Source: Nonlabens ponticola (GTDB lineage: Bacteria > Bacteroidota > Bacteroidia > Flavobacteriales > Flavobacteriaceae). From it: a stretch of 32,000 nucleotides of DNA. Where the stretch lies: NCBI RefSeq assembly GCF_003966335.1, contig NZ_CP034549.1:900001-932000 (forward strand), given 5' to 3'. Numbering within the stretch: the stretch's first letter is position 1; each line of letters starts with the position of its first letter. The position numbers and the translations under genes are program-made. Below the pieces are notes generated by a model. It did not search any database, was not told where the DNA came from, and was given only the letters and a program-made list of their open reading frames with translations. This document shows, piece after piece, positions 7,667 through 31,566 of the stretch.

Positions 7667-8545
7667 ATGAAAAAACTAACTTTTTTATTGAGTGTTGTTG
7701 TTTATTTAGCTTTCGCGAAAGCTAACACAGCACGAGCACAACAAGAATTTAAAGGCGTTGCTTACTACACGAGCAAGACGACTTTTAAAATGAAAAAAGA
7801 TACCGCTAGTGTCAAGCAACAGGATCCTGAAAAGGCTGAAATGCAGGCGATGATTAGGGAGGCCTTCAAAAAAGGAAGCACCGCAGACTTTAAACTAGAA
7901 TTTTCTCAAACAGAGTCCATGTATGAGAAAGAGGTCGAGTTAGTGGCGCCAAAACCGTCAAGCGGCGCGAGCATCACTTTTTCATCTAGTGGACCAACAT
8001 CCAGCACCATTTATAAAAACTTGCAGGATCAGGAGTTTATCATGAAAGATCAAATCTTTGGTAAGGACTTTCTCATAACCGATAAATTAAAAACCTATCA
8101 ATGGCAACCTACTCAAGAGACAAAGCAGATAGGAAACTATACCTGCTATAAAGCTACTTACACGCCAGAGCTTACCGAGGAGCAGAAGAAAGCAAAAGAA
8201 GAGAAAAAAGAGGATGCCAAAAAAGGCAGCCTGTTTGCCCTAATGGATGATGTCGATCCTACTATCGAAGTATGGTACACTCCAGAAATTCCCATCGCCA
8301 ACGGTCCTGGTGAATATCATGGATTACCAGGTCTTATCCTTGAGGTCAAAGAGCGCAATACGATCCTTTTATGTACTAAAATCGTTATGAATCCAGAAGA
8401 GGATTTTGAAATTGATCAGCCTCGTGGTGGTAAGACAATTACTCAAGAAAAATTTGACGCCCTACAAAAGAAAAAAATGGAAGAGTATCAAAAGAAGAAC
8501 GGTACTAAGGGCTTTATAGTAAGAGAAGTGCGCACGTCAAATTAA
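7667..8545 (+). CDS. GLPGLI family protein (paralog 1)
   Basis: It has a signal peptide and the motifs QIGNYTCYKA, WYTPEIPIANGPGEYHGLPGLILEV and LLCTKI, which define the GLPGLI family. Confidence 0.85.
   Translation: MKKLTFLLSVVVYLAFAKANTARAQQEFKGVAYYTSKTTFKMKKDTASVKQQDPEKAEMQAMIREAFKKGSTADFKLEFSQTESMYEKEVELVAPKPSSGASITFSSSGPTSSTIYKNLQDQEFIMKDQIFGKDFLITDKLKTYQWQPTQETKQIGNYTCYKATYTPELTEEQKKAKEEKKEDAKKGSLFALMDDVDPTIEVWYTPEIPIANGPGEYHGLPGLILEVKERNTILLCTKIVMNPEEDFEIDQPRGGKTITQEKFDALQKKKMEEYQKKNGTKGFIVREVRTSN
7706..7725. repeat. P1 palindrome copy, TTAGCTTTCGCGAAAGCTAA, inside a CDS
   Basis: This 20-bp perfect palindrome encodes LAFAKAN in the signal-peptide region of GLPGLI paralog 1. Confidence 0.95.
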
Positions 8546-24340: not shown

Positions 24341-25522
24341 CTACACCTGCGTTTCCATTTCTCTAACCTGCGCCATTTTATTCTTGAAAATCACAGCAGC
24401 GCTGGTATAACCACCTTCAGTTCCATCTACAAAGTGGATATGATTATCCTTTCTGTCTTGCACATAACAACTCATCACGGATGCGTGCGTGCTATGGATG
24501 CCATAAACGATCTTTCCTTCACGTTCCAGCAGGTCTAGATAATTTGTCAACGCCTCGATTTGTCCAGCATCACCTTCCATAACTGTATTAAGGGAACCAT
24601 CAAACATGATGGTGTCAGACAATTGGCTCACTTTATTTAGGTATTCCTTGCCTTCCTTGAAATAGGTGAAATAGAACGTGCCAAAATAGGTGATCAACCA
24701 GTGTTTCAATAAATAGTCCAGCTTGCTCTTACCTATGCGCGCAATCATTTCTTTCTTGATTTTGGAAATGGTTGCTTTCAGTTTCAGACGGTTGGTATTG
24801 ATGGGCTGCCTGCGCTCTAGTGAACCAAATAGCAGGAATATAATATCCATGATATCGGCATAGATCTCGGCTTGTTTTGATTGATCCTCACAATTAACTA
24901 GCAGGCAAACCACCTTATGTTTCTGGTCACGTGGCGATATCTCATCCCAACGGCATTCCATACCAGTAAGGTCGATTGCAGGCGAATTATTTTCAAAAAT
25001 AGATTCCTGCTTAAATTCTGCCTTTATCAAACTCTCTGCATATTTCAAGCCGTTGCCCAAAACGATAGGTATGGTCAAATAACTGTTGATCTTTGCCTTG
25101 GCAATTCTCAATAAATGACGCTCATCGTACACCTTTTGCACCTTGATACTACCTATGCGCAAGTTTAGTTTGAGATTGTTCTTGACGTGAGACTTATAAT
25201 TGTATAAGGCAGACATGACGCGTGCATGCACATCTGCAGGAATCAAAAAGGTCACGCCATCACCGCCAAAAAAATACGGAATCTCATGATTGCGCAATTG
25301 ACTCTTGACCGTGTTGATCACCGTCACAACGCTACCGGTCGCTGCCAGATTGACCTCATTATGCATGCCTTTTTGAACCGCACGCGTGCTTTGCGCAACG
25401 TCTGCTACTACCACATGCCAGTCATGTGGTACCGCGGTAAAATTCTGCGGCTTACGTAAAATCTTACGTATAGGCGCATATTTTGTCTTCAAAGAAGAAT
25501 AAAAATAACGTGTGTCTTCCAT
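24341..25522 (-). CDS. DUF3095-like protein with a palm-type nucleotide-cyclase-like N-domain
   Basis: The 393-aa protein has an N-terminal HVVVADVAQST (D41) and YFFGGDGVTFLIP (G86-G89). These resemble the two metal-Asp strands of GGDEF or class III cyclase palm domains. The DUF3095 assignment is from memory. Confidence 0.6.
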   Translation of the reverse strand: MEDTRYFYSSLKTKYAPIRKILRKPQNFTAVPHDWHVVVADVAQSTRAVQKGMHNEVNLAATGSVVTVINTVKSQLRNHEIPYFFGGDGVTFLIPADVHARVMSALYNYKSHVKNNLKLNLRIGSIKVQKVYDERHLLRIAKAKINSYLTIPIVLGNGLKYAESLIKAEFKQESIFENNSPAIDLTGMECRWDEISPRDQKHKVVCLLVNCEDQSKQAEIYADIMDIIFLLFGSLERRQPINTNRLKLKATISKIKKEMIARIGKSKLDYLLKHWLITYFGTFYFTYFKEGKEYLNKVSQLSDTIMFDGSLNTVMEGDAGQIEALTNYLDLLEREGKIVYGIHSTHASVMSCYVQDRKDNHIHFVDGTEGGYTSAAVIFKNKMAQVREMETQV

Positions 25523-25669
25523 CGTACATTTAAGTACGTAAATGTATCAGCACAGATATTTTACAAAATCCTAATTAACTAATTATTAAATATCTAGAGT
25601 ATCGATGCACAGATCGTGGTTTTAAGGGCGTTTTTCCCAAAATTTTTGGGGATCGGGCTATACGCTACA

Positions 25670-25691
25670 ACCTGCCTGCTGGCAGGCAGGT
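25670..25691. repeat. P2 palindrome copy, ACCTGCCTGCTGGCAGGCAGGT
   Basis: It is near-perfect, with a 9-bp stem and a CTGG centre. It is preceded by CGCTACA. Confidence 0.9.
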
Positions 25692-25733
25692 CTTTTTTAG
25701 GTTTCATTAACCAAAAAAAGGATTTCCGCTACT

Positions 25734-25755
25734 ACCTGCCTGCCGGCAGGCAGGT
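25734..25755. repeat. P2 palindrome copy, ACCTGCCTGCCGGCAGGCAGGT (perfect, 22 bp)
   Basis: It is its own reverse complement. It is preceded by CGCTACT and lies 64 bp from the first copy. Confidence 0.95.
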
Positions 25756-25774
25756 CCCTAACGCAAGAAAAGTT

Positions 25775-25876
25775 AAACTCAAACTTGAATTAGAACTTTA
25801 ATTCGCACTTGAAATGTGAACCTGAATTAGCATGACATGAACTATTAGTCTCTCTGAATTTATTTCAGAGTCTTCC
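25775..25876. repeat. composite repeat, copy C: hexamer-phased tract plus hairpin A
   Basis: The hexamer tract runs from 25775 to 25828 (AAACTC AAACTT GAATTA GAACTT ...). Hairpin A is CTCTGAA-tttat-TTCAGAG at 25852-25870. It lies downstream of the helicase gene. Confidence 0.75.
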
Positions 25877-25994
25877 TAATTAATAGAGATCTTTTTAGAG
25901 GATGACATTAAACTTAATTTCTGATTCATCTTCAAGTTCGCTTTCAATTTCCTAAAGAGTATCATTAGAAATTTAAGAGACAGCGTTATTTCAA

Positions 25995-28454
25995 TCATTC
26001 CCACTTCAGCTGCATGCGCTTGATACGATCTGCTAATTTCTCGCTGCTCAGTTTTTCGCGCAAGCGGTCTGTAATAATAGGGAATGAAAAAGGCGTTGGT
26101 TTTTCACAGGCTTTCCAGACAATTTCTTGATTTTGAATGCGCACCAGCGCTTCACGTAGACGATATTCTTCAATAGCTTGCTCAAAAGTTTCCGTATAGG
26201 CTTGTTTGAAAAGCAAGTTGTCTGGCTCGTTATCTCTAAAAACTTCAAAAAGAAGCTGACTGCTATTCTGTAAGTGAGCTGTTTTAATAGCCTTGTTTGG
26301 ATAACCCGTAAATACAAGCCCAGAGATCACCGCAATATCACGGAATTTCCTTCTGGCCATTTCAGTCGCATTCATGCTGGATTGCAAGTCCTCAGTAAGC
26401 ATGTCTGGTGTTAGCAGGTCATTATCCAGCACCTCTTGCATATCAAACGGCTGATCACTCAATAGTTCAAAACCATAATCATTGAATGCAATCGAGAACG
26501 TAATAGGTTTTAATAAACTGATGCGGTAAGCGATGATGCCTGACATAGCCTCGTGAACAAATCTGCCTTCAAAAGGATAGAACACCGCATGATAGCCTTC
26601 ACGAGTTTTAAAAGTCTCTATCAAAAATTGATGTTTTTGCGGTACGATACTTTCCAATTGCTGCCGCTGGATAATTTCTTTGAGGGCTTTGACTTCTGGT
26701 GTGCGTTTCTTTCCCGTCTGGAAGTTTTCCATCTCGTCACGCAGCAGCTCGCCTAGTTGTGCACTCAACGGTAAGCGGCTGCCTTGCCAATTAGATACTG
26801 TATTAGTTTTTTTAGTCGAATTGCGCACTTGCGCCACCATGCCTTTGAGTCTAATGAATTCCAGTGTTCTTCCAGCAAAAACAAACACATCGCCACGATC
26901 CAGTTTGCTGATGAAATACTCTTCAACTGATCCTATGTAACCACCAGTTTGATATTTCACGGTGACCGTTGTCGCGCCGACTATGGTTCCCATTTGCAAG
27001 CGATGGCGCATGGCGATGGCCTTGCTGTCTATGTAATACCTACCATCATCATCAATGCTTACTTTTTTATACTCATCATAAGATTGCAACGAGGCACTAC
27101 CGTAAACGATAAAATTGAGGCACCATTTCCATTCCTCATCGGTTATACTAGCATAACAAAATGTGTTTTTGACCTCAGGAAAAATATTGTCGGGATAAAA
27201 ACCTCCTGAAACAGCCAGCGTACATAAGTATTGAATCAGTACATCGTAGCATAGTAAATAGGGCAATCGATCTTCAACCGCCTGACTAGAAACGGCCTTT
27301 TGCAAAGCACTTGCTTCAATCAGTTCCAGCGCATGAGTAGGCAGGAAGTGAATCATACTGGTCTCGCCAGGCCTGTGACCTGATCTGCCTGCACGTTGTA
27401 AAAATCGCGCAACACCTTTGGGGCCACCTACCTGGATAATGGTTTCCACTGGCGCAAAATCCACACCTAGATCCAGTGATGAGGTACAAACACAGGCTTT
27501 TAATGACTCATTTCTTATCGCATTTTCTACCCAAACACGCGTTTCTTTATTGATGGAACCGTGATGCATGGCCACTTCACCCGCAAACTCTGGATGCTTA
27601 GACATAAGTGATTGAAACCAAAGCTCACATTGCGCTCTGGTATTTGTAAATATGAGTGTTGACCGACTGGAATTGATGATCTCGACAACATTTTTTAGCA
27701 AATGCAACCCTAAATGACCGCGCCATGGGAATTTATCCATGCTTTCAGGTATGATGGATTGCACGGTGATGTCTTTTTTGAGATTGGCTTTTATGAGTAC
27801 GCTTTCGCGAAAGCGTGACTCGTCAACACCCAATAACACTTGTCTGGCTTGCTCTAGATTACCGATGGTCGCACTAATACCCCAAATCTTGATCTGCGGA
27901 TTAAGTCCCAAAAGTCGCGAAACGCCCAATTCCATTTGCACGCCGCGTTTGGTTCCTAGCAGTTCATGCCACTCGTCTACCACTATGGTGCTGCAATCCC
28001 TGAAGATGCGCTCATGATCTTTGGAACCCAGCATGAGATGCAGACTCTCTGGTGTGGTGATCAGTAAATCAGGCATGGATCGCATCTGTGCGGCGCGTTC
28101 TTTTGTTGAAGTGTCGCCACTGCGTATGCCTACTGTAAATGGTAGGCCGATACCATCCACAAATCGCTGGGATGCTTGCGATATTTCCTGAGAAAGCGAG
28201 CGCAAAGGTGTGATCCAAATAGCCTTGAGACCTTTTTTGGGCTTCTTCTTGTAGTCAGGATTTTCCTTGATGTATTTAAGAACAATCGCCACCCAGAGCG
28301 CATAAGTTTTACCACTACCCGTTGGTGCGTTGAGCAGCCCGTGCTTACCAGCCAACAACGCTTCCCATGTCTTTTTCTGAAACGGAAAACTCGTCCAGCC
28401 TTGCTGCTGGAAATAACTTTCGGCTATATGGAAGAGTTCTTTTTTTGTCATCAT
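25995..28454 (-). CDS. ligase-associated DNA damage response DEXH-box helicase (Lhr-core-like)
   Basis: Helicase motifs are motif I (NAPTGSGKT), motif II (VDEWH), SAT, TSSLDLGVD and QRAGRSGH. The C-terminal part resembles a DEAD-associated domain. The gene is adjacent to the ligase and the MBL exonuclease. Confidence 0.92.
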   Translation of the reverse strand: MMTKKELFHIAESYFQQQGWTSFPFQKKTWEALLAGKHGLLNAPTGSGKTYALWVAIVLKYIKENPDYKKKPKKGLKAIWITPLRSLSQEISQASQRFVDGIGLPFTVGIRSGDTSTKERAAQMRSMPDLLITTPESLHLMLGSKDHERIFRDCSTIVVDEWHELLGTKRGVQMELGVSRLLGLNPQIKIWGISATIGNLEQARQVLLGVDESRFRESVLIKANLKKDITVQSIIPESMDKFPWRGHLGLHLLKNVVEIINSSRSTLIFTNTRAQCELWFQSLMSKHPEFAGEVAMHHGSINKETRVWVENAIRNESLKACVCTSSLDLGVDFAPVETIIQVGGPKGVARFLQRAGRSGHRPGETSMIHFLPTHALELIEASALQKAVSSQAVEDRLPYLLCYDVLIQYLCTLAVSGGFYPDNIFPEVKNTFCYASITDEEWKWCLNFIVYGSASLQSYDEYKKVSIDDDGRYYIDSKAIAMRHRLQMGTIVGATTVTVKYQTGGYIGSVEEYFISKLDRGDVFVFAGRTLEFIRLKGMVAQVRNSTKKTNTVSNWQGSRLPLSAQLGELLRDEMENFQTGKKRTPEVKALKEIIQRQQLESIVPQKHQFLIETFKTREGYHAVFYPFEGRFVHEAMSGIIAYRISLLKPITFSIAFNDYGFELLSDQPFDMQEVLDNDLLTPDMLTEDLQSSMNATEMARRKFRDIAVISGLVFTGYPNKAIKTAHLQNSSQLLFEVFRDNEPDNLLFKQAYTETFEQAIEEYRLREALVRIQNQEIVWKACEKPTPFSFPIITDRLREKLSSEKLADRIKRMQLKWE
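27799..27816. repeat. P1 palindrome copy inside the helicase gene (ACGCTTTCGCGAAAGCGT)
   Basis: It is read on the minus strand as RFRESV, in the context VDESRFRESVLIK. Confidence 0.95.
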
Positions 28455-28487
28455 CGTTCCGCATTAATGGCGGAATCTTTCTTTTCT

Positions 28488-28591
28488 TTGTCATTCTGAA
28501 CTTGTTTCAGAATCTACCTTTCAACTTTATTTAAATTATTTAAACTTCCAAACACGTATCTCGACTGTCGCTCGATACTGGACTGATTTTT
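28488..28591. repeat. composite repeat, copy I: hairpin A plus 37-nt box B
   Basis: Hairpin A is ATTCTGAA-cttgt-TTCAGAAT at 28493-28513. Box B is CGTATCTCGACTGTCGCTCGATACTGGACTGATTTTT at 28555-28591. It lies in the ligase-helicase spacer. Confidence 0.8.
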
Positions 28592-28635
28592 AAAATTCTA
28601 TTCTCTAATCTCTTTTTTCCTTTCTTCATTTCGAT

Positions 28636-30390
28636 CTACATAAACTCACCATCAGTAGGAATGAGTGCTTTCAAATCATCCAGCGTGTTGGCTTCTTCAA
28701 TAGGTTTGTCTTGACGCCAGCGCACGATTCTAGGGAAACGCGTGGCAACGCCAGATTTATGACGCTTGCTGGGTGCGATGCCTTCAAAAGCTATTTCAAA
28801 AACATGATGCGGCGTAACAGATCTTACAGGTCCAAAACGTTCCAAGGTGTTTTTCTTGATCCAGGCGTCTACTTTTCTGAATTCGGCATCGGTGAGTCCT
28901 GAGTATGCCTTTGCGAAAGTCACTAGTTCACCATCTTGCCATAATCCAAAGGTGTAATCGGTGAATAGATTGGCGCGCCTACCATGACCGCGCATGGCAT
29001 AAGTTAACACGGCATCCACAGAAAATGGATCAACTTTCCATTTCCACCAGTCGCCTTTTTTGCGTCCTACCAGATACGGACTGTCCTTGCGCTTGATCAT
29101 TAAGCCTTCCGATCTGCGTTCTTGTGATTTTTCTCGTTCTTCTGCTGCTTCTTTCCAGCTGTTGAACGACATGGTTTCTGAAAGGAGTAGAGGAACTAAA
29201 TCTGAACTTGAACTTGAAATCGAATTAGAGTTGTCATCCTGAACTGGTTTCAGGATCTTCTGGTCGCTAACATTAGGCTGGTCTGATCCACCATCCGTAT
29301 CTCGAATGTCGCTCGAAACTGGATTACTTTTGGGATCTTCATAAGGAATACCATCCATGACAGCATCCACCAGTTCCTCCAAAATCTTCCTGCGATCTTG
29401 GAAAGCCATGTCTCTAATGTCCTTGCCTTGCCATTCTAACAAGTCATAGGCGACGACTACAACAGGAACATCTGCCAGCAATTTTTTACCGACTGTTTTA
29501 CGACCTATTCTGGTTTGTAGATCGTTGAAATTCATGATCTCACCATCCTTATAAGGCAAGATTTCACCATCGATCACGGTGCCATCAGGAATCACGTCTA
29601 GGAATTTTTGAAATTCTGGATATTTATCGGTTACCAATTCCTCACCGCGTGACCAGACAAACAGCTCACCAGACCTGATGATACTTTGAGATCTAATGCC
29701 ATCCCATTTATGTTCCATGCTCCAATCCTGGACGTCTCCTAGATCAGCAACATCGCCTTCAATCGCATAAGCCAAATAGAATGGATATGGCTTGCCACGC
29801 ATGGCAACCTCATTGTCCTCAAAGACCAATTCTTGAAATGTCGTATTCTCGCCAGTCCAGCTACCCATTAATTTGTGAGCCAGTACATCTTGATCGATAC
29901 CTGTTGATGCAGCCAAGGCGCGCGTCATCAATTTTTGCGAGACGCCTATACGAAAGCTACCTGTCATGATCTTATTGAAAACAAATCGCTCATAGTAATT
30001 GAGCTTCAACCAGTTTTCTTGTAGGTATGCTTTCTTTTCTTCATCTGGCTTTTTGCGCAGCTCAATCAACTCACTGACGATGGTAGAAAGTGATTTGTCA
30101 GACGGCTCGCTGGTGGTAGGTAGAATCAACGCAATGGTTTCTGCGAGGTCACCAACAATATGGTAGGATTCTTCAAACAACCACATGGGAATACCGCTGA
30201 TCTCAATCGCCCATTCTCTCATGAGGGTTGTGTTCACTGGTCGTTTAGGTCTGCGATGTGATAGAATGGCGATGGTCCATAGCTTGTCATCTTCAGGCGC
30301 TGTGTTAAAGTACTCGGTTAGCGCGGCTACCTTGAGCGTAGTTTTATTGGTGCCATCAATGGTTCTTATGAGTTCTGCGAATTGTTTCAC
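28636..30390 (-). CDS. ATP-dependent DNA ligase (ligase-associated DNA damage response type) with an internal low-complexity insertion
   Basis: Ligase motifs are motif I (EHKWDGIR), III (DGEIL), IIIa (VVVAYDLL), IV (EGLMIKRK) and V (WWKWK). A roughly 50-aa Ser/Asp/Asn-rich segment sits between IIIa and IV. Confidence 0.92.
   Translation of the reverse strand: MKQFAELIRTIDGTNKTTLKVAALTEYFNTAPEDDKLWTIAILSHRRPKRPVNTTLMREWAIEISGIPMWLFEESYHIVGDLAETIALILPTTSEPSDKSLSTIVSELIELRKKPDEEKKAYLQENWLKLNYYERFVFNKIMTGSFRIGVSQKLMTRALAASTGIDQDVLAHKLMGSWTGENTTFQELVFEDNEVAMRGKPYPFYLAYAIEGDVADLGDVQDWSMEHKWDGIRSQSIIRSGELFVWSRGEELVTDKYPEFQKFLDVIPDGTVIDGEILPYKDGEIMNFNDLQTRIGRKTVGKKLLADVPVVVVAYDLLEWQGKDIRDMAFQDRRKILEELVDAVMDGIPYEDPKSNPVSSDIRDTDGGSDQPNVSDQKILKPVQDDNSNSISSSSSDLVPLLLSETMSFNSWKEAAEEREKSQERRSEGLMIKRKDSPYLVGRKKGDWWKWKVDPFSVDAVLTYAMRGHGRRANLFTDYTFGLWQDGELVTFAKAYSGLTDAEFRKVDAWIKKNTLERFGPVRSVTPHHVFEIAFEGIAPSKRHKSGVATRFPRIVRWRQDKPIEEANTLDDLKALIPTDGEFM
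29193..29332. repeat. composite repeat, copy L, in frame within the ligase CDS: hexamer tract, hairpin A and box B
   Basis: The hexamer tract is at 29193-29230. Hairpin A is ATCCTGAA-ctggt-TTCAGGAT at 29236-29256. Box B is at 29296-29332. By hand alignment, box B matches copy I at about 31 of 37 positions and hairpin A at 26 of 30. Confidence 0.8.
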
Positions 30391-30531
30391 ACGATTAAAT
30401 TTAAACTCAAGTTCAAATCAAAACTCAAATGGTTTTCCTTATTTAATTTGTAAGGCATATTGTTTGAGGAAGAGCTCACTATATTCAAAGAGATCATGAC
30501 TTTAAATTGATTTTTAAATTTTAGTTTTGAT

Positions 30532-31566
30532 TTAATTTTTGTCGGGTTCCAACTCGGCTTCAGGCTCAGATTCATTGAGTGTTTCGCCTTCATATTGCGT
30601 GCGCTCACTGATAGCGTTGAGGCCCTTTTCTTCTCTCAAGTATCTAGCGAAAATCTCTTGATATCCATGTGTGGTAATCACGTTTTCACAGCCGGTGGCA
30701 TCAATGCTTTGTAGCAAACCATCCCAATCGCAATGGTCTGATAGAACAAAGCCTTTATCTATGGCCCGCCTGCGGCGCGCACCACGAAAGGTCATCCAGC
30801 CGCTAGCGCTTGCTGTCGCGTAGGGAACAAATTTGCGCATCCACGCGCTACCGTGTGCACTAGGTGGAGCAACCACGATGTTGCCTATCAAGTCTTTCTT
30901 AGGTGTTTCCCTAGTGACTAAATGCGTCTCAGGAAAATCGATGAGTTCGCGCAGTACCTCGGTCATTTTATAAACGGCGCCATGGCAATAGATTTTCATC
31001 TTACTGGTGTCTAGATGTTTGATAAGTCGTTGTGCTTTGCCTAGCGAATATGCAAATAGGATAGAGGTCTTGCCTTCGGCGTGGTTTTGTGCGCACCACT
31101 CGTTGACATCGCTCATGACCTCAGTCTGTGGTCGCCATTTGAATGCTGGTAATCCAAAGGTGCATTCTGTTATAAAAGTGTTGCATTTGATGGGCTCATA
31201 AGGGGTTGAGATACCGTCATCTTCCGTTTTATAATCTCCTGTAAAAACCCAGACTTCGTCTTTGTGTTCTACCCTAATTTGGCAGGATCCTGGAATATGA
31301 CCAGCAGGATGGAAGCTGAACTTGACGTTGTTGATGTGCAAGCTTTCGCCGTGAGCGATTCCTGAAACATTAATATCACCCAGCCTGTGACTAATGATGG
31401 GCACGTTATCGTGATGTGTGATGTATTTCTTGTGACCCCAGCGACTGTGATCTGCATGGCCGTGTGTAATTAATGCTTTGTCCACAGGTTTCCATGGATC
31501 TAGGTAAACATCTGCAGCATGGCAATAGATGCCGTGGTCTGTAAATTTAAGTAAGGGCTCGCTCAT
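30532..31566 (-). CDS. ligase-associated DNA damage response exonuclease (metallo-beta-lactamase fold)
   Basis: It carries the MBL motif HGHADH and further His/Asp motifs (HPAGH, TFGLP, DHCD, TTHG). It is the first gene of the exonuclease-ligase-helicase set. Confidence 0.9.
   Translation of the reverse strand: MSEPLLKFTDHGIYCHAADVYLDPWKPVDKALITHGHADHSRWGHKKYITHHDNVPIISHRLGDINVSGIAHGESLHINNVKFSFHPAGHIPGSCQIRVEHKDEVWVFTGDYKTEDDGISTPYEPIKCNTFITECTFGLPAFKWRPQTEVMSDVNEWCAQNHAEGKTSILFAYSLGKAQRLIKHLDTSKMKIYCHGAVYKMTEVLRELIDFPETHLVTRETPKKDLIGNIVVAPPSAHGSAWMRKFVPYATASASGWMTFRGARRRRAIDKGFVLSDHCDWDGLLQSIDATGCENVITTHGYQEIFARYLREEKGLNAISERTQYEGETLNESEPEAELEPDKN

What the first reader, a model, noticed from the sequence alone, without database searches (positions are those of the whole stretch)
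25775..29332. Composite repeat at the junctions of the ligase cluster, with compensatory base-pair changes in its hairpin
There are three copies of a modular element. Copy C (25775-25876) lies downstream of the helicase gene. Copy I (28488-28591) lies between the ligase and helicase genes. Copy L (29193-29332) lies inside the ligase gene.

Hairpin A reads ATTCTGAA/TTCAGAAT in copy I, ATCCTGAA/TTCAGGAT in copy L and CTCTGAA/TTCAGAG in copy C. The differences between copies come as paired changes that keep the stem intact: T-A to C-G at one stem position in L, and at a different position in C. This is the signature of selection on secondary structure.

Copies I and L also share box B (CGTATCTCGAnTGTCGCTCGAnACTGGA...), placed 35-37 nt after the hairpin. 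Copies C and L share the motif ACTTGAAAT...GAATTAG in a hexamer-phased tract before the hairpin.

A structured element recurring around one operon could be a MITE-like repeat. It could also be an RNA processing or stability element, or a protein-binding module.
Basis: seen in the sequence. Interest (0 to 1): 0.65.

Follow-up and report, generated by a model that had tools for sequence, protein, structure and literature searches.

The report
Hairpin DNA repeats decorating a ligase operon
The repeat is real, but it is a mosaic of known-type selfish DNA hairpin repeats (CGTC-tagged REPs, the kind cut by small GIY-YIG nucleases) that sit at the junctions of a Nonlabens DNA-repair operon, one copy being read in frame as a floppy loop of the ligase.

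Summary
Three same-strand hairpins (25848-25872, 28490-28514, 29233-29257) fit GTC-[8 bp stem]-[5 nt loop]-[stem]-C; none is expected by chance. Copies I and L are also ~104-106 nt composites: hairpin A, spacer, box B.

Hairpin A matches the published definition of CGTC/TGTC-tagged REPs (Di Nocera 2013), the class containing Neisseria dRS3/NTS and Rickettsia RPE-4/6. Small GIY-YIG "Ssn" nucleases cut these as single-stranded DNA (Nat Commun 2025). The exact 25-mer occurs in at least 120 genome stretches from many phyla, mostly as head-out dimers, and in two cases beside a GIY-YIG gene.

Box B is a dispersed repeat confined to Nonlabens-like DNA in the sequence sampled. Arrays of it flank a GIY-YIG gene in N. 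antarcticus.

Copy L lies in frame inside a 56-aa, predicted-disordered, hypervariable insertion of the ATP-dependent ligase. Across 11 Nonlabens ligases the orthologous hairpin keeps pairing (97.7%). Five of 8 pairs change on both sides and there are no G-U intermediates. This points to constraint or turnover at the DNA-hairpin level, not to an operon-specific RNA element.

Verdict: a new member of a known kind; moderate interest.

The parts
28490..28514 (+). Hairpin A, copy I: (T)GTC tag, 8-bp stem ATTCTGAA/TTCAGAAT, loop CTTGT, tail C(TA). It lies in the ligase-helicase spacer.
   Evidence: (DNA fold -5.3 kcal/mol, z -3.5)
28554..28581 (+). Box B, copy I. On the operon strand it reads CCAGTA-TCGA-GCGACAG-TCGA-GA-TACGT, an interrupted palindrome.
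   Evidence: The fold is weak on its own. The family is a dispersed repeat of Nonlabens-like DNA.
28484..28589 (-). Composite I (box B, 41-nt AT-rich spacer, hairpin A), 106 nt, intergenic.
   Evidence: An orthologous copy exists in L001.
29233..29257 (+). Hairpin A, copy L: (T)GTC tag, stem ATCCTGAA/TTCAGGAT, loop CTGGT, tail C(TT). On the coding strand it is read in frame as ILKPVQDD.
29295..29322 (+). Box B, copy L, read in frame as PVSSDIRDT.
29227..29330 (-). Composite L (box B, 39-nt spacer, hairpin A), 104 nt, inside the ligase ORF.
   Evidence: The length is 104 nt in WIN-L, L001-E, L001-L, L002-L and L128-L.
29191..29358 (-). Segment coding ligase residues 345-400. This is an insertion relative to the family profile, between the NTase-domain helix 330-344 and strand 401-403. 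It is predicted to be disordered.
   Evidence: profile split 1-345 / 404-584; hypervariable, adding roughly 0-70 aa between ligases of 536 and 606 aa; pLDDT <50 for residues 354-396
29198..29231 (+). Hexamer-phased tract (TGAACT units) next to hairpin L. It encodes SNSISSSSSD.
25848..25872 (+). Hairpin A, copy C: GTC tag, stem TCTCTGAA/TTCAGAGT (first pair broken, second pair compensated), loop TTTAT, tail C. It lies downstream of the helicase.
   Evidence: (z -4.1)
25782..25830 (+). 12-nt periodic tract (consensus AACTTGAATTAG) beside copy C.
28636..30390 (-). ATP-dependent DNA ligase (cisplatin damage response / ligase-associated operon), 584 aa.
25995..28454 (-). Ligase-associated DEXH (Lhr-type) helicase, 819 aa.
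30532..31566 (-). Ligase-associated DNA damage response exonuclease.

Best explanation
The 'composite repeat' is a mosaic of selfish or domesticated DNA hairpin repeats of the REP class, not an operon-specific RNA element.

Hairpin A. It is a member of the CGTC/TGTC-tagged REP superfamily, most like family CGTC-2: unpaired GTC head, 8-bp stem starting AT, 5-nt loop, tail starting with C. This superfamily includes Neisseria dRS3/NTS and Rickettsia RPE-4/6. Its members have been shown elsewhere to be bound and cut, only as single-stranded DNA, by small single-domain GIY-YIG 'Ssn' nucleases whose genes they flank.

Box B. It is a second interrupted-palindrome repeat, found here only in Nonlabens and related flavobacterial sequence. 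It forms inverted doublets, and arrays of these doublets surround a different small GIY-YIG gene.

History (inferred). In the Nonlabens lineage one box B and one hairpin A came to lie about 40 nt apart. The resulting ~104-nt unit was then copied within the ligase-associated repair operon: into the ligase-helicase spacer (I), in frame into a tolerant surface loop of the ligase (L), and in a sister species also between exonuclease and ligase. Only the one open reading frame on the coding strand (…ILKQVQDD…) is seen in genes. The insert behaves as a disordered, length-variable linker.

The 'compensatory changes'. They reflect a requirement for a perfect Watson-Crick DNA hairpin. This requirement could be met by recognition by the nuclease or propagation machinery, or by replacement or gene conversion from other family variants. 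It does not indicate selection on an mRNA structure.

Shown versus inferred. Shown here: the family features, the distribution, the in-frame status, the covariation and the association with GIY-YIG genes. Inferred: that a Nonlabens GIY-YIG enzyme acts on these particular copies, and how the composite was copied.
For: Family features.
- All three window hairpins carry the GTC head, an 8-bp stem, a 5-nt loop and the C tail.
- These are the defining features in PMC3733652: tag CGTC or TGTC, 8-9 bp stems starting AT, loops of 4-5 nt, a short tail, head-to-head dimers, presence in Bacteroidetes.

Distribution.
They come from Bacteroidota, Sphingomonadales, Patescibacteria, Elusimicrobiota, Treponema, Melainabacteria and others.
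- It is also found in 47 viral-contig stretches.
- In those loci there are 198 GTCAT-headed hairpins, against 2-13 for control heads, and the tail is C in 197 of 198.
- In a flank-blind test, 53 of 71 other AT-stem hairpins carry GTC…C on exactly one strand.
- 41 of 59 neighbouring pairs are head-out dimers with 6-103 nt spacers (34 of them 6-39 nt), mostly heterodimers. This is as described for CGTC-2.

Link to GIY-YIG genes.
- A GIY-YIG gene is flanked on both sides by hairpin-A-type repeats in L110, and one lies directly adjacent in Winogradskyella L079.
- A Lacinutrix GIY-YIG gene is flanked by GTCATTGCGAGG-type hairpins.
- Box B arrays flank a GIY-YIG gene in metagenome locus L125 and in N. 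antarcticus L143, with 3 doublets upstream and about 11 downstream.
- The literature reports that Ssn cuts NTS/SRM hairpins as ssDNA. The C after the palindrome is critical for binding and the 3 nt upstream for cleavage. 71% of ssn genes have flanking SRMs.

Intragenic status.
- The ligase profile is split at residues 345/404.
- The linker is hypervariable and built of recurring in-frame modules across Nonlabens and other genera.
- It is predicted to be disordered.
- PMC3733652 already reports intragenic REPs concentrated in DNA synthesis and repair genes, including a DNA ligase.

Covariation without wobble pairs.

The composite is a unit. It has a constant 104-nt length, and the L001 E and L copies are 82% identical including the spacer.
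Against: - The window hairpins do not match the published degenerate SRM search motif, which requires a G+C-rich stem.
- No GIY-YIG gene lies in the 32-kb window. I could not survey the source genome, so an enzyme partner for hairpin A in this organism is unproven.
- In about 200 kb of Nonlabens-like DNA sampled, GTCAT hairpins were seen only in the ligase operon. That is unlike a freely dispersed REP family and fits local duplication better than active transposition.
- Box B folds no better than shuffled sequence.
- cd10448 (Ssn) membership of the Nonlabens GIY-YIG protein could not be tested. Only Pfam GIY-YIG was tested, on the Lacinutrix protein directly and from the precomputed annotation for the Nonlabens clade.
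- REPs can also act at the RNA level, for example in mRNA stabilisation. Such a secondary role for copy I is not excluded.
Confidence: 0.72

Rival explanations
1. Operon-specific structured RNA. Hairpin A, with or without box B, acts in the polycistronic mRNA as a processing, stability or translation-control element at the gene junctions of the ligase operon.
For: - The hairpins fold in RNA as well (-7.5 to -9.6 kcal/mol, z -1.9 to -3.0).
- Pairing is conserved with double-sided changes.
- Copies I and C lie just downstream of ORFs, where REPs are known to stabilise upstream mRNA (general knowledge; PMC3733652).
- All three copies have the same orientation relative to the operon.
Against: - The same 25-mer occurs in unrelated contexts in many phyla.
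- There is no Rfam family and no U-tract.
- There are no G-U intermediates in 128 cells.
- The conserved unpaired GTC head is on the antisense strand of the operon.
- Copy L is inside a coding region that is dispensable in many orthologues: Nonlabens ligases of 536-546 aa lack all or most of it.
- The lig-hel spacer is replaced by other genes in L002, L137 and L140, so the element is not required there.
Confidence: 0.12
2. Purely local history. I is a decayed copy of the linker-coding segment of the ligase (or the reverse), made by a one-off segmental duplication. The modules have no life of their own.
For: - The composites have a constant length of 104-106 nt.
- E and L in L001 are 82% identical including the spacer.
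- GTCAT hairpins in Nonlabens-like DNA were found only in this operon.
- Read in the matching frame, I gives KISPVSSDSRDT…ILKQVQND, which resembles the ligase peptide.
Against: - Both modules exist independently elsewhere. Hairpin A is cross-phylum. Box B is at 10 or more other sites, in doublets and in arrays around a GIY-YIG gene.
- The modules stay 86-88% identical while the spacer has diverged to background.
- The orthologous hairpin changes stem type between close species while staying perfectly paired.
- Local duplication is therefore part of the story but not a sufficient account.
Confidence: 0.1
3. A REPIN-type element mobilised by a REP-associated tyrosine transposase (RAYT, Y1 HUH).
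For: - An IS200-like Y1_Tnp gene lies immediately downstream of the helicase in L003.
- Head-out dimers resemble REPINs.
Against: - That Y1 gene is flanked by a different palindrome, GGGCAGACTTAAGTCTGCCC, not by GTCAT hairpins or box B.
- PMC3733652 found no transposase associated with CGTC REPs.
- The genes found next to these repeats here are GIY-YIG genes.
Confidence: 0.04
4. Chance similarity of short A+T-rich palindromes.
For: - The window is A+T rich (about 40% GC).
- The hexamer tract is low-complexity and only 68-74% alike.
Against: - 0.00 matches are expected for the hairpin pattern and for box B in shuffles.
- Orthologous copies exist in other Nonlabens genomes.
Confidence: 0.02

Closest known systems
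CGTC-tagged REPs (Di Nocera, De Gregorio & Rocco 2013, BMC Genomics 14:522), especially family CGTC-2
   Same: - Unpaired tag CGTC or TGTC.
- 8-bp stem beginning with A-T, T-A.
- 5-nt loop and a short tail starting with C.
- Head-to-head heterodimers in other genomes, including Novosphingobium and Sphingomonas.
- Occurrence in Bacteroidetes.
- In-frame intragenic copies concentrated in DNA synthesis and repair genes, including a DNA ligase.
   Different: - The stem is A+T-rich (CTGAA).
- In Nonlabens the copies seen are singletons confined to one operon, not a dispersed family.
- Here the hairpin is joined to a second, unrelated repeat (box B) in a ~104-nt unit that has itself been duplicated.
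- Tails are CTA/CTT rather than CCA.
Neisseria NTS/dRS3 and Ssn-related motifs (SRM), cut by SsnA-type GIY-YIG ssDNA nucleases (Nat Commun 2025;16:2388)
   Same: - Architecture (C)GTC-AT…stem-loop-stem…AT-C.
- The invariant positions are those reported as critical for binding (the C after the palindrome) and for cleavage (the 3 nt before it).
- Small single-domain GIY-YIG genes are flanked by hairpin-A-type repeats (L110, L079) and, for box B, by arrays (L125, L143).
- Loops tolerate insertions (nested inserts in L001, L003 and L125).
   Different: - The hairpins fail the published SRM degenerate pattern.
- No enzyme has been tested.
- No ssn-like gene lies in the window.
- Box B has a different design: TCGA/TCGA core, bulged outer stem, no GTC tag.
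Rickettsia palindromic elements (RPE), in-frame insertions in protein genes
   Same: - A palindromic repeat inserted in frame into a surface-exposed, tolerant part of a housekeeping protein.
- According to Di Nocera 2013, RPE-4 and RPE-6 are themselves CGTC REPs.
   Different: - A free-living marine flavobacterium, not an obligate intracellular bacterium.
- One hot-spot site that accumulates several different modules and a Ser-rich microsatellite, rather than many genes each with one element.
BIME/NIME-type mosaic elements and REPINs
   Same: A mosaic of short palindromic units and spacers at gene junctions; dimer organisation in other genomes.
   Different: The RAYT association was tested and not found. 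The two halves of the composite are unrelated repeats, not an inverted pair.

Membership tests
CGTC-tagged REP superfamily (PMC3733652) | Unpaired 5' tag CGTC (TGTC or CCTC allowed) | tested here: met
   I and L have TGTC; C has AGTC with the GTC core kept. In 120 other loci, GTCAT-headed hairpins number 198 against 2-13 for control heads.
CGTC-tagged REP superfamily (PMC3733652) | Stem of 8-9 bp with complementary A-T/T-A at positions 1 and 2 | tested here: met
   I has ATTCTGAA and L has ATCCTGAA, both perfect 8-bp stems. C deviates: TC…GT, first pair broken, second pair C-G.
CGTC-tagged REP superfamily (PMC3733652) | Loop of 4-5 nt | tested here: met
   Loops are CTTGT, CTGGT and TTTAT. The same loop types dominate in other genomes.
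CGTC-tagged REP superfamily (PMC3733652) | Short unpaired 3' tail (consensus CCA) | tested here: met
   The tail starts with C in all three copies (CTA, CTT, CTT). The tail is C in 197 of 198 hairpins elsewhere. CCA, CTC, CTT, CTG and CTA are the common tails.
CGTC-tagged REP superfamily (PMC3733652) | Multi-copy in the genome, predominantly head-to-head dimers | tested here: inconclusive
   In other genomes 41 of 59 adjacent pairs are head-out dimers. In Nonlabens-like DNA only singletons in the ligase operon were seen. The source genome could not be surveyed.
Ssn-related motif (SRM) / NTS (PMC11893778) | Match to HGTCWYN(0-2)YYVSBRHN(0-5)WNVSBRGN(0-2)RNCYNB | tested here: not met
   There are no matches at I, L or C, nor anywhere in the window. 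The stem is too A+T rich for the motif.
Ssn-related motif (SRM) / NTS (PMC11893778) | Conserved GTC just upstream and C just downstream of the palindrome, giving the repeat an orientation | tested here: met
   the literature basis is.
Ssn-related motif (SRM) / NTS (PMC11893778) | Repeats flank a small single-domain GIY-YIG (cd10448) gene | tested here: inconclusive
   Met for hairpin-A-type repeats in L110 and L079, and for box B in L125 and L143. Pfam GIY-YIG was confirmed directly only for the Lacinutrix protein; for the L125/L143 clade it rests on the precomputed PF01541 annotation. There is no GIY-YIG gene in the window, and cd10448 membership is not testable with the libraries to hand.
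Ssn-related motif (SRM) / NTS (PMC11893778) | Strand-specific cleavage as single-stranded DNA by the cognate nuclease | not testable with these tools
   This needs biochemistry.
REPIN/RAYT system | A single-copy Y1 transposase gene flanked by the same REPs | tested here: not met
   The Y1_Tnp gene of L003 is flanked by GGGCAGACTTAAGTCTGCCC palindromes, not by hairpin A or box B.
RPE-like in-frame palindromic insertion | The repeat lies in frame within an ORF, at a site absent from homologues and tolerant of insertion | tested here: met
   Profile split; orthologues of 536-546 aa lack all or most of it; the reading frame is open through the modules; pLDDT is <50 for residues 354-396.
Curated structured RNA (Rfam 15) | Match to a covariance model at or near the gathering score | tested here: not met
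   No hit at I, L or C, even at E<=10.
Intrinsic terminator | G+C-rich stem followed by a T/U run | tested here: not met
   None of the three hairpins is listed by the terminator scan.

The most novel reading that the evidence does not exclude
A stretch of an expressed DNA-repair enzyme is being continually rewritten by REP turnover. At one orthologous in-frame site of the Nonlabens ligase, the hairpin switches between stem types (CTGAA, CCGCA, CCGCG, CCGGC) several times on a shallow tree. It always stays perfectly paired. Within a genome it tends to match the stem type of the other copies in the same operon. This suggests re-insertion or gene conversion by an ssDNA-hairpin machinery (Ssn-like GIY-YIG) acting inside the gene. 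It may also mean that the ligase/Lhr/exonuclease operon is a preferred sink because its own products handle the nicked ssDNA intermediates.
Probability: 0.15. Interest if true: 0.7.

Novelty: new member of a known kind. Interest (0 to 1): 0.4.

Why it matters
The finding turns an apparently operon-specific 'structured element' into a recognisable case of a widespread class of DNA hairpin repeat whose enzymology was described only in 2025.

It adds four things:
- An A+T-rich CTGAA variant conserved as an exact 25-mer across many phyla. The published SRM search motif misses it, so current censuses probably under-count these repeats.
- A second candidate repeat/nuclease pair: box B arrays around a distinct GIY-YIG gene in Nonlabens.
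- Another example, in Bacteroidota, of the unexplained tendency of REPs to sit in frame in DNA-repair genes. Here there is a series of orthologues in which turnover of the hairpin can be followed.
- A practical annotation warning. The 56-aa 'linker' of this ligase, and several short 'ORFs' at the operon junctions in relatives, are translated repeat DNA.

Tried and rejected
- Rfam at gathering and at E<=10. Nothing was found at I, L or C. There was only a weak Flavo-1 hit next door.
- Literal sequence and peptide searches of the paper library (CTGAACTTGTTTCAG, LKQVQDD and others): no papers.
- The published SRM regular expression: no match.
- Terminator and promoter scan: nothing at the hairpins.
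- RAYT hypothesis: the only Y1 gene seen has different flanking palindromes.
- GIY-YIG genes in the window and in the 47 viral loci: none.
- PDB and NCBIfam look-ups meant to tie the GIY-YIG proteins to Ssn gave only distant UPF0213 hits (E 0.035 and 0.19) and sub-threshold family hits. The supplement of the Ssn paper is not held.
- Box B as a stable hairpin: the fold energy is no better than shuffles. Its outer-stem flanks do differ between variants in a complementary way (CCAGTA…TATGG against CCTGTT…AAAAGG). This was read by eye and not tested formally.
- GC skew to assign the replication strand: it follows gene orientation only, so it is uninformative.
- Ligase tree to time the stem switches: a neighbour-joining tree without support values, so it is only suggestive.
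Full report
1. WHAT IS IN THE WINDOW

The window comes from a Nonlabens-like flavobacterium. The ligase is 88% identical to that of Nonlabens sp. Hel1_33_55.

On the minus strand lies a ligase-associated DNA damage response cluster:
- exonuclease, 30532-31566 (TIGR04122)
- ATP-dependent DNA ligase, 28636-30390 (TIGR04120 / PRK09247)
- DEXH Lhr-type helicase, 25995-28454 (TIGR04121)
- a DUF3095 gene follows.

C is downstream of the helicase, I is in the 181-nt ligase-helicase spacer, and L is inside the ligase.

2. CHECKING THE OBSERVATION

Hairpin A is present three times, always on the + strand:
- 25848-25872 GTC-TCTCTGAA-TTTAT-TTCAGAGT-C
- 28490-28514 GTC-ATTCTGAA-CTTGT-TTCAGAAT-C
- 29233-29257 GTC-ATCCTGAA-CTGGT-TTCAGGAT-C

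The pattern GTCNNYCTGAANNNNNTTCAGRNNC gives these 3 hits against 0.00 in shuffles. CTGAA-N5-TTCAG gives 3 hits against 0.05.

The hairpins fold as predicted, as DNA (z -2.3 to -4.1) and as RNA.

I and L share a 26-nt hairpin block (23 of 26 identical) and a 36-nt box B (31 of 36 identical), at nearly the same spacing. Taken from 12 nt before box B to 6 nt after the hairpin, the composites are 106 nt (I) and 104 nt (L) long. They are 66% identical overall because the spacers are unrelated.

C has no box B. It shares only the hairpin and a periodic A/T-rich tract with L (TRF period 12, consensus AACTTGAATTAG; period 6 in L). That tract is low-complexity and 68-74% alike.

The hairpin-to-box-B gap is about 38-40 nt rather than 35-37 nt.

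3. COPY L IS TRANSLATED REPEAT DNA IN A TOLERANT LOOP OF THE LIGASE

The family profile matches ligase residues 1-345 and 404-584, leaving an unmatched insert of about 56 aa.

In an alignment of 34 flavobacterial ligases this site is hypervariable. Nonlabens orthologues range from 536 to 606 aa, so the insert adds roughly 0-70 aa. It contains recurring peptide modules: ILKQVQDD, IPRQARND, IPHQVRND, VSSDSRD(T/M), SSAVEN, VSPLGKSPQENG, FDYAQDKL and Ser/Asn runs.

At the DNA level these modules are, in frame, hairpin A variants, box B variants, other small palindromes and an AGTTCA/AATTCA microsatellite.

An AlphaFold2 model gives pLDDT <50 and no secondary structure for residues 354-396. These lie between a confident helix (330-344) and a confident strand (401-403). 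The model as a whole is only moderate (mean pLDDT 67).

On the coding strand only one of the three frames through hairpin A is open; the other two contain TGA. That is the frame found in the ligase genes.

4. THE SAME ELEMENTS IN RELATIVES

- Nonlabens sp. Hel1_33_55 (L001) has orthologous I and L composites. It also has a third composite inside a 132-aa 'ORF' between exonuclease and ligase. Its E and L copies are 82% identical over all 104 nt, spacer included, so the composite has been copied as a unit.
- N. agnitus (L002) has box B, spacer, hairpin A and a second box B in the linker. A 125-aa ORF replaces the spacer element.
- Other relatives have a Fic gene or a methyltransferase gene at the ligase-helicase junction.
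- Nested insertions sit in the loops of hairpin A (L003, +24 nt) and of box B (L001, +27 nt; L125, a CCTGCCTGC…GCAGGCAGG palindrome).

5. COVARIATION

I aligned the orthologous linker hairpin from 11 Nonlabens ligases, together with the I, E and C copies. That makes 16 sequences. The L003 loop insert was removed by hand.

On the 8-bp stem:
- 97.7% of cells are paired.
- 5 of 8 pairs change on both sides, in 25 cells.
- No shuffle out of 500 reaches the observed covariation score, and slid controls collapse to 19-45% paired.
- Not one cell shows a one-sided (G-U type) change.

Stem types are CTGAA, CCGCA, CCGCG, CCGGC and CCCGCA. On a quick neighbour-joining tree of the ligases they are interleaved (no support values). 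Within a genome the copies tend to share a type: three of three in the window, three of three in L001, and a CCGC type in three of three in L139.

The absence of wobble intermediates and the wholesale switches fit a DNA-level palindrome requirement, or replacement by other family members. They fit gradual RNA-level compensation less well. This reading is an inference.

6. WHAT HAIRPIN A IS

They come from Bacteroidota, Sphingomonadales and other Alphaproteobacteria, Gammaproteobacteria, Patescibacteria/CPR, Gracilibacteria, Elusimicrobiota, Treponema, Melainabacteria, Firmicutes and others. There were also 47 stretches in viral contigs. The flanks are unrelated.

In those 857 kb:
- There are 198 GTCAT-headed perfect hairpins, against 2-13 for control heads. 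197 of 198 are followed by C.
- In a search blind to flanks, 53 of 71 further AT-stem hairpins carry GTC…C on exactly one strand.
- 41 of 59 neighbouring pairs are head-out dimers. Spacers run from 6 to 103 nt, and 34 of the 41 lie between 6 and 39 nt. The pairs are usually of two different stem variants.

This is the published description of CGTC-tagged REPs (PMC3733652):
- tag CGTC or TGTC
- 8-9 bp stems starting with A-T pairs
- 4-5 nt loops and a short tail
- head-to-head dimers, with heterodimers predominating in CGTC-2
- five phyla including Bacteroidetes
- Neisseria dRS3 and Rickettsia RPE-4/6 as members
- no dedicated transposase.

That paper also reports that intragenic REPs are concentrated in DNA synthesis and repair genes, including a DNA ligase. 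It notes that in some species such a gene is the only one decorated.

A 2025 study (PMC11893778) showed that the Neisseria member (NTS, CGTCATTCCCGCGMAVGCGGGAATCYRG) and related 'SRM' hairpins are bound and cut, only as single-stranded DNA, by small GIY-YIG 'Ssn' nucleases. The genes for these nucleases are typically flanked by the repeats. The C just after the palindrome is most important for binding, the three nucleotides before it for cleavage, and the loop is dispensable.

These are the positions that are invariant in hairpin A. The window hairpins nevertheless fail the published degenerate SRM pattern, because their stems are A+T rich.

7. LINK TO GIY-YIG GENES IN THE DATA GATHERED HERE

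- L110, a gammaproteobacterial MAG, has a 91-aa GIY-YIG gene flanked on both sides by hairpin-A-type repeats and by tandem half-sites.
- Winogradskyella immobilis (L079) has such a gene with a hairpin-A dimer about 75 nt upstream. Another hairpin supplies its stop codon.
- A Lacinutrix GIY-YIG gene (Pfam PF01541, E 7e-18) is flanked by GTCATTGCGAGG-type hairpins.

Two of the 120 seed loci have a GIY-YIG gene within about 120 nt of the hairpin. That is far more than a gene present a few times per genome would give by chance. This is an estimate, not a formal test.

8. WHAT BOX B IS

Box B was absent from the 120 cross-phylum loci at up to 3 mismatches. A looser core pattern hit two sites in one of those loci, L117.

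An exact scan of metagenome contigs found 11 stretches. Several come from large contigs of one marine metagenome, at different genomic places.

There it forms inverted doublets with a sister unit (CGTTCTCGACTGYCGCTCGAACCGG … AAACCAGTATCGAGCGACAGTCGAGATATGG). Only the ligase locus (L128) has it joined to a hairpin A.

In L125, and in the isolate genome of N. antarcticus (L143), arrays of these doublets surround a 114-115-aa GIY-YIG gene. In L143 there are 3 doublets upstream and about 11 downstream, with a period of about 125 nt. Homologues of that gene form a small clade that includes a named Nonlabens protein.

Box B alone folds no better than shuffled sequence. Its outer flanks differ between variants in a complementary way (CCAGTA…TATGG against CCTGTT…AAAAGG) around a constant TCGA…TCGA core with fixed bulges. 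This was read by eye and not tested formally.

Box-B-like modules also occur in frame in the ligase linkers of Maribacter and Pricia.

9. HOW IT MOST LIKELY WORKS

Shown:
- Hairpin A has every structural hallmark of CGTC REPs.
- Box B is an independent dispersed repeat.
- Both kinds flank small GIY-YIG genes somewhere.
- The composite has been duplicated as a unit within the operon.
- L is an in-frame, disordered and dispensable insert.

Inferred:
- The repeats are maintained as DNA hairpins recognised on single-stranded DNA by Ssn-like nucleases, or by whatever propagates these repeats.
- Their presence in the ligase operon is the outcome of insertion or local copying, filtered by selection for an open frame and a tolerant site.
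- The 'compensatory' pattern arises from that DNA-level constraint or from conversion.

Unexplained: in about 200 kb of Nonlabens-like sequence, GTCAT hairpins were seen only in this repair operon. This echoes the older, also unexplained, bias of intragenic REPs towards repair genes.

10. VERDICT

The 'structure under selection' reading is right about pairing but probably wrong about the molecule and the scope.

The element is a new member of the CGTC-REP / Ssn-motif class: a new host, a new stem variant and a new mosaic. It comes with a useful series of orthologues and a second candidate repeat-nuclease pair.

Interest is moderate (0.4).

Noticed in passing
window 25647-25760 (minus strand): A weak Flavo-1 RNA match (RF01705: 23.2 bits against a gathering score of 42, E 0.16) lies downstream of the helicase. 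Each half carries a 22-nt perfect palindrome ACCTGCCTGCYGGCAGGCAGGT (25670-25691 and 25734-25755), and the + strand copy at 25670 is followed by a T run. L001 has a Flavo-1-like GATTGAAATGGAAA repeat at the same place, without the palindromes.
   Followed up: partly
L125:3414-3436 and window 25670-25755: The same CCTGCCTGC…GCAGGCAGG palindrome is nested in the loop of a box B unit next to the GIY-YIG gene of L125. A third palindromic repeat family therefore seems to insert into the loops of other hairpins.
   Followed up: no
L003:4745-5880: An IS200-like Y1 transposase gene (PF01797, E 9e-19) lies right after the helicase. It is flanked by three copies of a different palindrome (GGGCAGACTTAAGTCTGCCC, or GGGTAGAC…) and followed by a putative toxin-antitoxin pair. 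It looks like a RAYT/REP system unrelated to hairpin A.
   Followed up: partly
window 30391-30531; L002:4352-4500: The exonuclease-ligase spacer is bounded by inverted hexamer-phased tracts (AAATTTAAACTCAAGTTCAAATCAAAACT… and its complement). This gives a TIR-like, MITE-like outline of about 140 nt. Similar tracts bracket copy C (25770-25789 against 25931-25950).
   Followed up: partly
L110:7250-7350 and 7790-7990; L019:1-60: Tandem arrays of the hairpin's 5' half only (GTCATCCTGAAC plus 7-9 variable nt, up to about 10 units) lead into a complete hairpin beside a GIY-YIG gene. Neither paper I read mentions such an arrangement of half-sites.
   Followed up: no
L002:6254-6631, L137:5594-6703, L140:4755-5501: The ligase-helicase junction is a hot spot for gene insertion among Nonlabens relatives. 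It holds a 125-aa ORF, a Fic/DUF4172 gene or a methyltransferase gene in place of the I composite.
   Followed up: no
window 28456-28476; L001:6413-6435: A separate hairpin lies immediately upstream of the helicase start codon in both species, with unrelated stems: TTCCGC…GCGGAA in the window and TCTCGCG-TCAAG-CGCGAGA (operon strand) in L001. It may be a decayed CGTC-type REP or a translation-control hairpin.
   Followed up: no
window 24341-25522; L135:7897-8568; L136:7997-8692: In Maribacter and Pricia the operon ends with the expected PdeM-type metallophosphoesterase. In Nonlabens a DUF3095 gene follows the helicase instead, and no PdeM was seen nearby.
   Followed up: no
L001:4106-4504; L139:2636-3004; L138:47-469: The short 'genes' of 122-140 aa called between exonuclease and ligase in relatives look like translated repeat modules. 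In L001 the product contains box B, hairpin A and SPLGK-type palindromes. The L139 and L138 calls were not read, so they may be the same or may be annotation artefacts of another kind, or unusual disordered proteins.
   Followed up: partly
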